Source: Candidatus Thorarchaeota archaeon
GTDB lineage: Archaea > Asgardarchaeota > Thorarchaeia > Thorarchaeales > Thorarchaeaceae
DNA: 64,000 nucleotides
Assembly: GCA_011364905.1 (NCBI GenBank)
Contig: RDNZ01000008.1
Span: forward strand, 16,923-80,922
Reading direction: 5' to 3'
Numbering within the stretch: position 1 is the first letter of the stretch; each line of letters opens with the position of its first letter. A program made the position numbers and the translations under genes. Of the stretch, positions 33,327 to 35,958 are shown in pieces. The notes under the pieces are model-generated. The model made no database searches, was not told the origin of the DNA, and saw nothing but the letters and a program-made list of their open reading frames with translations.

Positions 33327-34568
33327 ATGCAGATTCCGGGTACAAACATTGACGTAAGTCTCAAGGTCAATCGCATATACGTTGCAGACCCGGCTGTAAA
33401 TCGAAGACTAAAATTCGCCGGTAGGTCCTTCAAAGAAATCATGGAGGAAGTACAACGATTTACCTACTTGCGAGGATTCAACGTTCCTCTCCCAATTCTA
33501 AAGTTTATTTTGAAGAGGATAGGCCTTCCTGAAGTCGATATAATTCCTGGAGAAGATGAGCTAACAAAGGAGGATCTGCTCGAACTCTCAAGAGCGTTGA
33601 ATGTTCTCGATTCACTAAAGGATGAATTTCTCTCGCCAACTGGCAAAAGTGGCATTCCCGACGATATTCAAAGCACTCTAATACGTTCCTCTCCAGAGCT
33701 TGAAGACTTGAAGATGGATGTTCCAGCTCCTCAAGAAACAAGTATTTGGGATATTCCTGCAAGCGAGGAGGTCAAAGGGTTGGTCTTTTCTTTCCATGGT
33801 GAGAATATCCCAAGCACCTCCACGCCAAGAACACAATCAGCGGATGAAAACAAATCTGTGAAATTCATATGGGATGATCCAGAGGTAGTTGCATCATTGG
33901 AAGATGTATCTCAAGATGAGAAATCAATGCCTGAGGGCGTACCCGAAATTCTCGACCTGAAAGTCCTGTTTCTTGGCGAAGAAGGAGTCGGTGTGAACAG
34001 CATTATCTTTGAGTCAAATCTGAAGCTTGGAAACGACTATTCTTCTCTTGATTTACCCCCAACTAGACCATTCACATTCAGCAACATAATTGAGCGAAAC
34101 GATGCAAATGTTAGAGTTGATGCTTGGACATTTCAGAAGAGTACTGAGGCAAAAGTTCCAAAGACGGAGTTTTACACTGGATCTGGAATTGTTGTGCTGG
34201 TTTATTCGGTGGCAGAGCGATGGAGCTTCGACAGCCTTGACTTCTGGATTCGAGAAGTTTCTAACGCCTTCCTTATACCACCACCGATAATAGTCGTCGG
34301 AAATAAAACCGATCTCCGTGATCATCCAGTCTATGATGATGATGATGAGGTTGAAGTCCCAGTTTCAACAGAAGAAGCCCGTGAGTATTGCGAAAAAGTC
34401 GCAAAGACGCTTGGGGAAAATGGACAGTCTCATCCGCTGTTCTTCATTGAAACCTCAACAATAACGGGACAAGGAATCACCGAGCTATTGAATAAAATCA
34501 TCGACTTTTGGCAAAGCAATGAGCGCCCAAGCATGCCAGCAACCGAGCAACACGCACCAACACTCTAA
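33327..34568 (+). CDS. Ras/Rab-like small-GTPase-fold protein with N-terminal extension, degenerate G1/G3 (copy 1)
   Basis: LKVLFLGEEGVGVNS, VLVYSVAERWSFDSL, IIVVGNKTDL, FFIETSTITGQGI; ATG 33327 chosen by alignment with copy 2. Confidence 0.85.
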   Translation: MQIPGTNIDVSLKVNRIYVADPAVNRRLKFAGRSFKEIMEEVQRFTYLRGFNVPLPILKFILKRIGLPEVDIIPGEDELTKEDLLELSRALNVLDSLKDEFLSPTGKSGIPDDIQSTLIRSSPELEDLKMDVPAPQETSIWDIPASEEVKGLVFSFHGENIPSTSTPRTQSADENKSVKFIWDDPEVVASLEDVSQDEKSMPEGVPEILDLKVLFLGEEGVGVNSIIFESNLKLGNDYSSLDLPPTRPFTFSNIIERNDANVRVDAWTFQKSTEAKVPKTEFYTGSGIVVLVYSVAERWSFDSLDFWIREVSNAFLIPPPIIVVGNKTDLRDHPVYDDDDEVEVPVSTEEAREYCEKVAKTLGENGQSHPLFFIETSTITGQGITELLNKIIDFWQSNERPSMPATEQHAPTL

Positions 34569-34713
34569 AGCTGGTTTCTTCAGGCATTGAATAGATAATC
34601 GAAGACTACATTTAATTCTCTCAACAAACAACCCCGCAAGATATCAGAAAAGTATTTAATATGTTCAAATATTACATAATAATTACTCTTGAGAAAGATG
34701 TGGTTGCTTAGAT

Positions 34714-35958
34714 ATGCAGATCCCCAGGACTAACATTGAGGTAACGCTCAAGACCAATGGCATCTATCTCAGAGACCCGGCTACACATCGCAGGCTGCGC
34801 ATAATTGGTAGATCTTTCAAGGAAATATTGGAGGATGTGCAACGGTTTGTATATATGCGCGGATTCAAAGTTCCTCAGCCAATTATCAAATTCATCTTGA
34901 AGCGAGTAGGTCTTCCTGAAGTCGATATCATTATTGAAAAACATGAGTTGACAGACGATGACCTTCAGGAGCTTTCGAAAACTCTCGACGTTATTGATAG
35001 TCTAAAGGACGAGTTCCTCACTCCATCTTACTCTCTCAAGGCAATTGATGAAACTGATAGTGGCATTTCAGAAATACCACAAGAACTACCAGATTTAACA
35101 GCAGACATTCCAGCGCCTCAAAAAATGAGTGTCTGGGACATTCCTGTAGACGAGGAGATCAAGGATCTTGTTTTCTCCTTCCACCCAGAGAACATATCAA
35201 CAAGTGTTCCCACCCCACGAACTCAGACGTCTGCGGACGAACAACCGATGAAATTCATCTGGGATGACCCTGCAGTTGCGGCAGCCATCGCAGAAACATC
35301 CGATGACGAGCAACTATCACCTGAAGTCATTTCAGACCTGCAAGACCTGAAGGTTTTGTTCCTAGGTGAAGATGGGGTTGGTGTGAACAGCATTATCTTT
35401 GAGTGCAACCTGAAGCTCGGGAACGATTATTCATCCCTTAGTTTGCCACCTACCAATCCATTTACATACAGTAACATAATTCAAGACGATGGAACAAGTG
35501 TTCGTGTTGATGCTTGGACATTTGAGAAAAGTATGGAAGCGAAAGTGTCAAAGACAGAGTTCTATTCAGGATCCGGCATCATAGTACTTGTTTATTCAGT
35601 TGCTGAGAGATGGAGTTTTGATAGCCTTGATTTTTGGACTCGAGAAGTTTCCAATGCCTTCCCAATTGCACCACCTATAATTGTGGTTGGAAATAAGACT
35701 GACCTCCGTGACCATCCAGTTTATGACGAGGAAGATGAGGTGGACATCCCAGTGTCCACGGAAGAGGCTCGTGACTATTGCTTCAAAATGGCTATGACTC
35801 TTGGAGAAAGTGGGCGGTCTCATCCTGTGTTCTTCATTGAAACTTCAACAATTACTGGACAAGGCATTACTGAACTTTTGAAGAAGATTGTTGACTTTTG
35901 GAAAGCAAATGAACGACCAAGCATGCCTGCCACTGAGCAAGATGTCCCAACAATCTAG
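34714..35958 (+). CDS. Ras/Rab-like small-GTPase-fold protein with N-terminal extension, degenerate G1/G3 (copy 2, tandem paralog)
   Basis: Full-length collinear similarity to copy 1; GEDGVGVNS, GNKTDL, ETSTITG. Confidence 0.85.
   Translation: MQIPRTNIEVTLKTNGIYLRDPATHRRLRIIGRSFKEILEDVQRFVYMRGFKVPQPIIKFILKRVGLPEVDIIIEKHELTDDDLQELSKTLDVIDSLKDEFLTPSYSLKAIDETDSGISEIPQELPDLTADIPAPQKMSVWDIPVDEEIKDLVFSFHPENISTSVPTPRTQTSADEQPMKFIWDDPAVAAAIAETSDDEQLSPEVISDLQDLKVLFLGEDGVGVNSIIFECNLKLGNDYSSLSLPPTNPFTYSNIIQDDGTSVRVDAWTFEKSMEAKVSKTEFYSGSGIIVLVYSVAERWSFDSLDFWTREVSNAFPIAPPIIVVGNKTDLRDHPVYDEEDEVDIPVSTEEARDYCFKMAMTLGESGRSHPVFFIETSTITGQGITELLKKIVDFWKANERPSMPATEQDVPTI

What the first reader, a model, noticed from the sequence alone, without database searches (positions are those of the whole stretch)
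33327..35958. Tandem Ras/Rab-like pseudo-GTPases with a conserved unknown N-terminal domain
Seen: both copies have G1 GE(E/D)GVGVNS (Walker A Lys replaced by Val) and VDAWTF(Q/E) in place of G3 WDTAGQ, but keep G4 NKTD and a G5-like ETST. They share an about 100-aa N-terminal domain (MQIPxTNI...GRSFKEIxExVQRF...KFILKRxGLPEVDII), an acidic linker with conserved islands (WDIP, FSFH, KFIWDDP), and the same C-terminal ERPSMPATEQ. The same substitutions in two otherwise diverged copies argue for selection rather than decay. Inference: catalytically dead scaffolds that may still bind guanine nucleotide.
Basis: partly seen in the sequence, partly recalled or inferred. Interest (0 to 1): 0.72.

Follow-up and report, generated by a model that had tools for sequence, protein, structure and literature searches.

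The report
Lysine-less Rab-like pseudoGTPase pair, Thorarchaeota
Two neighbouring genes of an Asgard (Thorarchaeota) archaeon encode well-conserved Ras/Rab-like proteins that lack the residues for gripping phosphate and magnesium and splitting GTP but keep the guanine pocket; they carry a lineage-specific N-terminal domain and always sit head-to-head with a small leucine-rich-repeat gene and giant surface-protein genes, so they probably act as non-switching adaptors, not enzymes.

Summary
There are two tandem + strand genes, A (33327-34568) and B (34714-35958), 69% identical. Each has an N-terminal domain, an acidic disordered linker with three Trp/Phe motifs, and a Ras-fold G domain.

The degenerate motifs are not decay:
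- The canonical P-loop Lys is Val/Ile in 122 of 122 close relatives, and DxxG is absent throughout.
- NKxD and ETS[ST] are kept.
- dN/dS is about 0.04-0.17 in the folded domains.

New here:
- The N-terminal domain defines a family found only in the window's own GTDB order (69/77 genomes, against 0/224 elsewhere in the phylum).
- More distant members (25-37% identity) still carry the P-loop Lys. The Lys seems to have slid one place (GVKS) and was then lost (GVNS) in the window's subclade.
- No member has DxxG.
- The orthologous LRR gene lies 120-460 bp away, divergent, in 23 of 25 genomes, followed by giant surface-protein genes. The nearby ESCRT cluster is linked only within the ≥63%-identity subclade of the window's genus.
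- The N-domain has no recognisable fold relative.

Best reading: a non-hydrolysing adaptor working with the LRR protein and the giant proteins. This is inferred, not shown.

This scan had already reached the same reading on other Thorarchaeota genomes. I found no paper describing the family.

The parts
33327..34568 (+). Gene A: N-domain, acidic linker and Lys-less Ras-fold G domain (413 aa)
   Evidence: ORF and translation; Pfam Ras/Roc on residues 212-392. The Met at 33327 is taken as the start because orthologues begin MQIPGTN there.
34714..35958 (+). Gene B: tandem paralogue (414 aa), 69% identical to A
   Evidence: B-type copies form one clade (support 100) nested inside the A group, so the duplication happened within the genus.
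33327..33641 (+). N-terminal module of A, residues 1-105: three strands and two helices (1-70) plus a conserved helix (81-101)
   Evidence: AlphaFold2 model of this part alone, mean pLDDT 84, above 90 for residues 1-70. Profile search finds it only in this family. No fold match.
33642..33947 (+). Acidic disordered linker of A (22 D/E, 8 K/R, 10 P in 102 aa) with motifs SIWDIP (33741-33758), LVFSFHGEN (33780-33806), TPRTQ (33822-33836) and KFIWDDP (33861-33881)
   Evidence: pLDDT 26-40 in the full-length model. W141, P144, E148, F156, H157, E159, T166, P167, R168, W182 and D183 are invariant in 25 diverse orthologues. Coordinates.
33948..34526 (+). G domain of A, residues 208-400: G1 GEEGVGVNS (33975-34001), G3 site VDAWTFQ (34116-34136), helix-3 ERWSFDSLDFW (34215-34247), G4 GNKTD (34299-34313), G5 ETST (34449-34460)
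   Evidence: Foldseek gives Rab, Rho and Ras chains at E about 1e-9, target TM 0.65-0.77.
34518..34550 (+). Conserved C-terminal tail NERPSMPATEQ of A (B: 35908-35940); no C-terminal Cys
   Evidence: P401, S402, M403 and P404 are nearly invariant in the close clade. The tail is present in degenerate form in the intermediate clade and absent from the Lys-bearing sister clade.
35347..35850 (+). G-domain motifs of B: G1 GEDGVGVNS (35365-35391), G3 site VDAWTFE (35506-35526), GNKTD (35689-35703), ETST (35839-35850)
32446..33078 (-). Divergently transcribed 210-aa leucine-rich-repeat protein with no Pfam family other than LRR; the conserved partner gene
   Evidence: Pfam LRR_8 and LRR_4. The orthologue lies 120-460 bp from the GTPase-like gene, divergent, in 23 of 25 genomes that have it and in all loci with enough flank.
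33079..33326 (.). 248-bp divergent spacer between the LRR gene and gene A, with an AT-rich TATA-like stretch about 60-75 nt before the A start. A similar stretch and a similar leader precede gene B (34569-34713).
   Evidence: Read directly from the sequence. Promoter function is inferred, not tested.
2679..32290 (-). Two giant membrane-anchored surface-protein genes (5889 aa and 3981 aa) downstream of the LRR gene on the minus strand
   Evidence: ORFs. The order giant - LRR - GTPase-like gene is conserved down to 35-50% identity (L015, L022, L023, L024, L048).

Best explanation
Genes A and B encode non-switching, hydrolysis-incompetent Ras-fold proteins (pseudoGTPases). I propose they serve as cytoplasmic adaptors together with the divergently encoded LRR protein, in a module tied to the giant membrane-anchored surface proteins next door.

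Shown:
- Ras fold.
- Canonical P-loop Lys replaced by Val.
- Mg-binding Ser replaced by Asn.
- Asp and Gly of DxxG both absent.
- No conserved switch I Thr.
- Guanine-specificity motifs NKxD and ETS[ST], the P-loop glycines and a helix-3 surface (D/E-R-W-S-F-D/E-S-x-D/E-F-W) kept under strong purifying selection.
- Strict head-to-head pairing with one LRR orthologue.

Inferred:
- The pocket still holds a guanine nucleotide (or is locked in one state) without a GTP/GDP cycle.
- The G domain offers a fixed binding surface.
- The lineage-specific N-domain and the three Trp/Phe-acidic short motifs of the linker recruit partners.
- A and B may pair with each other.

History: an ancestral N-domain-linker-GTPase with a P-loop Lys duplicated. 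In the LRR-linked copy the Lys moved one place (GVKS) and was then lost (GVNS or GVSS) in the window's genus.
For: - Motifs and alignment to Ypt6/Ypt1.
- 122/122 close relatives have V or I at the Lys position; W[TS]F replaces WDTAG; GNKxD and ETS[ST] are kept.
- dN/dS is 0.04-0.07 in the G domain, 0.02-0.17 in the N-domain and 0.14-0.30 in the linker.
- Switch I is 6-9 residues shorter in some members.
- The full-length model shows a disordered linker between two folded parts.
- G-domain fold matches Rab, Rho and Ras.
- LRR orthologue adjacent and divergent in 23/25 genomes. Genomes that have only the Lys-bearing paralogue have only LRR paralogues.
- Giant genes are conserved next to the LRR gene, and in a second genus another giant gene lies convergent downstream.
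- Forms with the N-domain and linker but no G domain exist (213 aa in L027; 164-182 aa in another genus). This argues that the N-terminal part carries function of its own.
- Stepwise P-loop change by clade.
- Precedent that Lys-less P-loops can still bind nucleotide: Irga6-K82A and the GMS proteins (PMC2532785).
Against: - No biochemical data exist. Nucleotide binding, lack of hydrolysis and every proposed partner are inferred.
- 34 of 122 relatives carry a Lys one residue downstream, and all keep a Ser after it, so a non-canonical P-loop register with some activity cannot be excluded for them.
- Gene adjacency does not prove physical interaction.
- No complex prediction could be run.
- The linker motifs gave no confident docking in the monomer model.
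Confidence: 0.55

Rival explanations
1. Class i pseudoGTPase: the pocket is empty. The proteins bind no nucleotide at all and are pure protein-protein scaffolds.
For: Lys, Mg-binding Ser, Asp57, Gly60 and the switch I Thr are all missing in the window copies. Class i examples such as AAGAB and CENP-M work this way (PMC12490416; PMC10211241).
Against: Class i domains have lost G4 and G5 as well. Here N326, K327 and D329 are at least 90% conserved even across the 25-37% identical wider family, and the P-loop glycines are invariant. That is hard to explain without a guanine ligand.
Confidence: 0.2
2. Regulator of the Lys-bearing paralogue. Like the mouse IRG GMS proteins acting on GKS proteins, the Lys-less copies bind the canonical-Lys family member found in nearly every genome of the family and hold it in one nucleotide state.
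For: A Lys-bearing paralogue with the same architecture is present in the own genome (L028, cut by a contig end) and in most genomes of the family. Lys was lost independently to Met in P0123 and P0154, the same substitution as in GMS proteins. GMS proteins regulate GKS proteins through direct nucleotide-dependent contacts (PMC2532785).
Against: The two clades are never neighbours. The Lys-bearing clade has its own conserved context: phosphoribosyltransferase, then an ABC ATPase and two FtsX-type permeases. The LRR/giant-linked position was already occupied by a Lys-bearing form (GKQS in L048), so the LRR-linked role predates Lys loss.
Confidence: 0.12
3. Still an active GTPase that uses a non-canonical mechanism, such as a shifted P-loop register, a Lys or Arg supplied in trans by a partner or by dimerisation, or a monovalent cation.
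For: GxxxxG, NKxD and G5 are intact. The wider family reads GxxxVGKx[ST], so the whole family may use a one-residue-longer Walker A. Basal close relatives read G[VI]KS. Pseudoenzymes with migrated catalytic residues are known (abstract of PMC10211241).
Against: The window copies have no Lys in the loop at all (GVGVNS). No member of the family has Asp57 together with Gly60 or a Gln61 equivalent. Switch I is variable in length and sequence.
Confidence: 0.1
4. ESCRT accessory factor: the pair works with the Vps22/Vps25/Vps4/Snf7 cluster that starts 2.6 kb downstream.
For: The ESCRT cluster follows (after a hydrolase and AspRS) in the window and in all loci of at least 63% identity with enough flank.
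Against: Unrelated genes (an alpha/beta hydrolase, AspRS) intervene. The linkage is absent in the 50%-identity genus (L024: a giant gene instead) and in L048, while the LRR/giant linkage persists there.
Confidence: 0.03

Closest known systems
Canonical Rab/Ypt small GTPases, including the crystallised Thorarchaeota Rab (PDB 7ezb/7eze; PMC10933270)
   Same: They share the Ras fold. The best sequence matches are Ypt6, Ypt1, Rab11, Rab1 and Rab8 (E 4e-10 to 1e-7). Foldseek finds Rab, Rho and Ras chains, including Thor-Rab. NKxD and ETS are kept, as are Rab-like stretches around strands 3-4 (FYTGSG, LVYSVA).
   Different: No P-loop Lys or Ser, no DxxGQ, no switch I TIGxDF, and no C-terminal Cys. 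A 105-aa N-terminal module and a 100-aa acidic linker precede the G domain.
PseudoGTPases that keep nucleotide binding but do not hydrolyse (Rnd1/3; N-terminal domain of p190RhoGAP)
   Same: A G domain under selection with catalytic residues replaced and used as a binding module. The p190RhoGAP N-terminal domain binds GTP without hydrolysing it (PMC10211241).
   Different: Those proteins keep the P-loop Lys and Mg ligands and lose mainly the catalytic Gln/Gly. Here the phosphate and Mg ligands themselves are gone. The proteins are unrelated in origin and in domain context.
IRG 'GMS' proteins (Irgm1-3) of mouse
   Same: The P-loop Lys is naturally replaced by a hydrophobic residue (Met there; Val, Ile or Met here). 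The Lys-less forms coexist with Lys-bearing paralogues and are still functional. Irgm3 is reported to bind GTP (PMC2532785).
   Different: IRGs are dynamin-like large GTPases, keep the Ser after the replaced Lys, and act on their paralogues. Here the conserved genomic partner is an LRR protein, not the paralogue.
ROCO proteins (LRR-Roc-COR)
   Same: A leucine-rich-repeat module is combined with a Ras-like domain that passes the Pfam Roc cut-off (31-32 bits against 27).
   Different: The LRR and G domains are on separate, divergently transcribed polypeptides. There is no COR domain: only about 15 residues follow the G domain, and Pfam gives no COR hit.

Membership tests
Ras superfamily (fold) | Small G-domain fold with the G1-G5 elements in order | tested here: met
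   Pfam Ras E 1.7e-12 and 6.9e-13, above its cut-off. Foldseek gives Rab, Rho and Ras chains at E about 1e-9, target TM 0.65-0.77.
Functional small GTPase (molecular switch) | Walker A GxxxxGK[ST] with the Lys and the Mg-binding Ser/Thr | tested here: not met
   GEEGVGVNS and GEDGVGVNS: Val opposite the Lys and Asn opposite the Ser in alignments to Ypt6 and Ypt1. V or I in 122/122 relatives.
Functional small GTPase (molecular switch) | Switch II DxxG(Q) and switch I Thr | tested here: not met
   WTFQ/WTFE replaces WDTAGQ. No DxxG in any of 122 close or 30 distant relatives. The switch I region is not conserved and is 6-9 residues shorter in some members.
Functional small GTPase (molecular switch) | Guanine-specificity motifs NKxD and SAK-like G5 | tested here: met
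   GNKTD and ETST in both copies. N326, K327 and D329 are nearly invariant across the whole family.
Rab family | Rab-specific RabF motifs (recalled from Pereira-Leal and Seabra 2000) and a C-terminal prenylatable Cys | tested here: not met
   No IGVDF-type switch I or RFRS-type switch II motif in the alignment to Ypt1. The proteins end ...PATEQHAPTL and ...PATEQDVPTI with no Cys. The RabF definitions are from memory.
ROCO | Roc domain followed by a COR domain in one polypeptide | tested here: not met
   Roc matches, but no COR family appears at E up to 1, and only about 15 residues follow the G domain.
PseudoGTPase, class i (no nucleotide binding) | Loss of nucleotide binding, shown biochemically; usually all G motifs degenerate | not testable with these tools
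   G4, G5 and the P-loop glycines are conserved, which argues against this class. Binding itself needs an assay. Definition from PMC12490416.
PseudoGTPase, nucleotide-binding but inactive | Binds a guanine nucleotide, with no hydrolysis | not testable with these tools
   The motif pattern fits (phosphate, Mg and catalytic residues lost; base-binding residues kept), but neither property was measured.
Any known fold family for the N-terminal domain | Structural match clearly above background | tested here: inconclusive
   Foldseek against PDB gives no row below E 0.1. The VIA wide search gives a best Z of 6.2 to a de novo design, below the usual background of 7-8. Atlas best score 0.81.

The most novel reading that the evidence does not exclude
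The family records a stepwise conversion of a working small GTPase into a fixed-state adaptor inside Asgard archaea: Lys in place, then Lys slid by one residue, then Lys lost. The product would use eukaryote-style short linear Trp-acidic motifs in a disordered linker, plus an LRR partner, to couple the cytoplasmic tails of giant adhesin-like surface receptors to intracellular machinery. That would be an archaeal receptor-adaptor system built on a dead G domain, possibly working as an A/B heterodimer.
Probability: 0.15. Interest if true: 0.8.

Novelty: new variant of a known kind. Interest (0 to 1): 0.6.

Why it matters
Asgard small GTPases are studied as forerunners of eukaryotic membrane-traffic switches. 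Published work has dealt with canonical Rab-, Arf- and Rag-like proteins. I found no paper on an archaeal pseudoGTPase: only two papers in the library hold both words, and neither has them in its title or abstract.

This family shows that Asgard archaea had already evolved G domains reused as non-switching modules, a theme thought typical of eukaryotic signalling. It has several features that make it a good test case:
- It is tightly delimited to one order.
- Lys-bearing, Lys-shifted and Lys-less members coexist, giving a natural series for asking what a P-loop Lys is needed for.
- It has a clear candidate partner (the LRR protein) and a candidate cellular context (giant surface proteins).
- It has an N-terminal domain of unknown fold.

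All of this can be tested with recombinant proteins.

Tried and rejected
- Pseudogene decay: rejected by dN/dS and by 122/122 conservation.
- ESCRT linkage: the ESCRT cluster is adjacent only in the ≥63%-identity subclade of the window's genus.
- N-domain identity: Pfam and NCBIfam gave nothing. Foldseek against PDB gave nothing below E 0.1; weak rows included RiPP-recognition-type domains of heterocyclases, which I do not trust. The VIA wide search gave a best Z of 6.2 to a de novo design, with type III secretion chaperones and ribosomal proteins at Z 4-5, all within background. The ESM Atlas best score was 0.81, at chance level.
Only some relatives (WDDV) do.
- The 213-aa gene next to the Lys-bearing clade is not an LRR relative.
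- The 608-aa form in L048 looked like an N-domain fused to an ABC-2 membrane domain. tblastn shows that the G domain simply stops after about residue 279, so this is a rearrangement or an assembly fault and not a new architecture.
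Full report
**1. What is there**

The window carries two + strand ORFs in tandem: A (33327-34568, 413 aa) and B (34714-35958, 414 aa). They align end to end with one gap and are 69% identical. Pfam places a Ras domain on residues about 212-392 of both (E 1.7e-12 and 6.9e-13), and Roc also scores above its cut-off. Residues 1-210 match nothing in Pfam or NCBIfam.

The best solved relatives by sequence are Ypt6, Ypt1, Rab11, Rab1 and Rab8. In those alignments:
- Val223 lies opposite the P-loop Lys.
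- Asn224 lies opposite the Mg-binding Ser.
- W-T-F-Q lies opposite W-D-T-A-G-Q.

A full-length AlphaFold2 model gives a folded N-terminal part, a disordered stretch (residues 97-206, pLDDT 26-40) and a G domain at pLDDT about 70-80. That G domain matches Rab, Rho and Ras chains, including the crystallised Thorarchaeota Rab.

**2. The genes are maintained, not decaying**

A word-indexed search returned 127 homologues. Nearly all are 405-440 aa, and where a source names them they are almost always Thorarchaeota.
- In all 122 sequences of this close clade (at least 49% identity) the canonical Lys position is V or I.
- The next residue is N (78), K (34), S (9) or G (1).
- The G3 site is W[TS]F; G4 is GNKxD; G5 is ETS[ST].
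- Nei-Gojobori dN/dS between A and B is 0.11 overall (G domain 0.06, N-domain 0.17).
- Against orthologues it is 0.04-0.07 overall and about 0.14-0.30 in the linker. dS is above 1, so these values are rough.

**3. A wider family, and the history of the P-loop**

A profile of the N-terminal 108 residues was scored against 1.84 billion representative proteins. It found only 43 proteins. The full-length ones (about 400-565 aa) have the same layout: N-domain, a longer Pro/Glu-rich linker, and a Ras domain.

Of the 30 with a readable G domain, 27 keep the Lys, mostly as GxxxVGK[RHSQKA][ST]. Two have Met and one has Arg. None has DxxG; they read WSFDDA or WCFDDA.

A maximum-likelihood tree (quick search, SH-aLRT support) gives three groups:
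- the close clade (support 100);
- a small intermediate set with GKQS or GMQS, grouping with the close clade (99);
- a Lys-bearing sister clade.

Read clade by clade, the loop goes GKQS, then G-V-K-S (basal close clade, second genus), then G-[VI]-K-S or G-[VI]-S-S (early branches of the window's genus), then G-[VI]-N-S (the window's subclade). The simplest reading is that the Lys slid one place and was later lost. Members with G[VI]KS may therefore be less impaired than the window's copies.

B-type copies form one clade nested among A-type copies, so the tandem duplication arose within the genus. The own genome also holds a third, Lys-clade paralogue. It is cut by a contig end, so only 78 N-terminal residues are visible.

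**4. Distribution**

In a sample of 301 genomes of the phylum, the N-domain profile matched 68/76 other genomes of the window's GTDB family, 1/1 of a second family of the same order, and 0/224 of the other 28 families. High-scoring hits, meaning the close or intermediate clade, occur in about 31 genomes, mostly in two genera. The sister clade occurs in nearly all genomes of the family. These counts are a sample, and many of the genomes are incomplete.

**5. Neighbourhood**

Upstream and divergent lies a 210-aa protein made of leucine-rich repeats (32446-33078, minus strand). It is followed on that strand by two giant ORFs of 5889 and 3981 aa. tblastn of the window's proteins against 27 related loci shows the order giant - LRR - GTPase-like gene wherever enough flank is held, including loci at only 50% identity.

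Thorarchaeota have many LRR paralogues, but the orthologue (E at most 1e-35) was found in 25 genomes:
- In 23 of them it lies 120-460 bp from the close or intermediate-clade gene, divergent.
- In the other two, both genes lie at contig ends.
- Genomes holding only the sister clade have only weaker LRR paralogues.

The intermediate, Lys-bearing form in L048 occupies the same head-to-head position, so the LRR link predates the loss of the Lys. In the second genus another giant gene lies convergent just downstream.

The sister clade has a different conserved context: a phosphoribosyltransferase, an unknown 213-aa gene, an ABC ATPase and two FtsX-type permeases of about 930-950 aa.

The Asgard ESCRT cluster (Vps22-like, Vps25, Vps4, Snf7) starts 2.6 kb downstream of B, after an alpha/beta hydrolase and AspRS. 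That linkage holds only in the at-least-63%-identity subclade.

**6. The N-terminal module and the linker**

Folded alone with 22 sequences, residues 1-70 form three strands and two helices at pLDDT above 90, followed by a conserved helix at 81-101. No search placed the fold:
- Foldseek against PDB gave no row below E 0.1.
- An all-against-representatives search gave a best Z of 6.2, below the stated background.
- The protein atlas gave chance-level scores.

The linker is acidic (22 D/E against 5-8 K/R). It holds three islands that are invariant across 25 diverse orthologues: W141-x-x-P144 with E148, F156-H157-x-E159, T166-P167-R168, and W182-D183. The sister clade lacks these islands but shares the helix (L91, D99 and F101 nearly invariant).

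Natural forms without a G domain exist. One is a 213-aa protein with the N-domain and all three islands (L027). Others are 164-182-aa N-domain proteins in the second genus, sometimes about 770 bp downstream of the full-length gene. The N-terminal half is therefore a functional unit in its own right.

**7. Mechanism**

Shown: the residues that contact the beta/gamma phosphates and Mg (Lys16, Ser17, Asp57, Gly60 and Thr35 in Ras numbering, established knowledge) are absent. The residues that read the guanine base, the P-loop glycines and a helix-3 surface are conserved.

Inferred: the proteins cannot run a GTPase cycle. They either hold a guanine nucleotide statically or are locked in one conformation, and they act as adaptors with the LRR protein near the giant surface proteins.

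Lys-less P-loops can still bind nucleotide. Irga6-K82A keeps wild-type GDP affinity, and the GMS protein Irgm3 is reported to bind GTP (PMC2532785).

Rivals are an empty-pocket class i pseudoGTPase, a GMS-like regulator of the Lys-bearing paralogue, a non-canonical active enzyme, and an ESCRT accessory. They are weighed in their own sections.

**8. Comparison and novelty**

Membership of the Ras superfamily by fold is met. The features of a working switch, of the Rab family and of ROCO are not met.

The nearest concept is the pseudoGTPase (PMC10211241; PMC12490416). A library search for pseudoGTPase together with archaea gave two papers, neither with the terms in title or abstract. The structural paper on Asgard small GTPases does not use the word 'pseudo'.

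Earlier notes of this scan had described the same family on other Thorarchaeota genomes with the same reading. The additions here are the Lys-bearing relatives, the stepwise P-loop history, the order-level restriction, the G-domain-less forms and the separate context of the sister clade.

I rate it a new variant of a known kind, of moderate to good interest.

Noticed in passing
window 38524-43616: Asgard ESCRT cluster: EAP30/Vps22-like (38524-39315, +), ESCRT-II/Vps25 (39318-40055, -), Vps4 with MIT, AAA and Vps4_C (40059-41276, -), Snf7 (41419-42036, +) and a conserved 525-aa gene (42039-43616, -). The gene order is conserved in loci L001-L017.
   Followed up: partly
L028:5098-5331 (G000 contig C29, at its end): A third family member in the own genome, of the Lys-bearing sister clade (78% identical to P0132 over 78 residues), is cut by the contig end. 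Upstream lie a geranylgeranyl-reductase-like gene and a phosphoribosyltransferase, as in L044 and L047.
   Followed up: partly
L027:7992-8633: A 213-aa protein of another Thorarchaeota MAG has the N-domain and the whole motif-bearing linker but no G domain. It is followed by a small 108-aa ORF and a 532-aa ORF, neither of them scanned.
   Followed up: partly
L021:2118-2573; L022:7187-7465; G170, G230, G251, G266: The second genus carries short (164-182 aa) N-domain-only paralogues, in two loci about 770 bp downstream of the full-length gene.
   Followed up: no
L048:7654-9480 (-): A 608-aa ORF of a single-contig genome joins the N-domain, the linker and the first third of a GKQS-type G domain to an ABC-2-type membrane region. 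No remainder of the G domain is found nearby. This is a rearrangement or an assembly error.
   Followed up: partly
L044:10816-17335; L045; L047: The Lys-bearing sister clade is regularly followed by an ABC ATPase and two FtsX-type permeases of about 930-950 aa, with an unknown 213-aa gene in between.
   Followed up: partly
window 33290-33326 and 34680-34713: The leaders before the two start codons resemble each other (…GAGGAAGGCGTGGTTG… and …GAGAAAGATGTGGTTG…), each preceded by an AT-rich TATA-like stretch. The duplication seems to have copied the promoter region too.
   Followed up: no
window 35970-36668 (-): A 232-aa alpha/beta hydrolase (Abhydrolase_11) lies convergent to gene B. It travels with the B-type copy even when that copy lies elsewhere (L014) and is missing from some single-copy loci (L004, L007, L008).
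   Followed up: no
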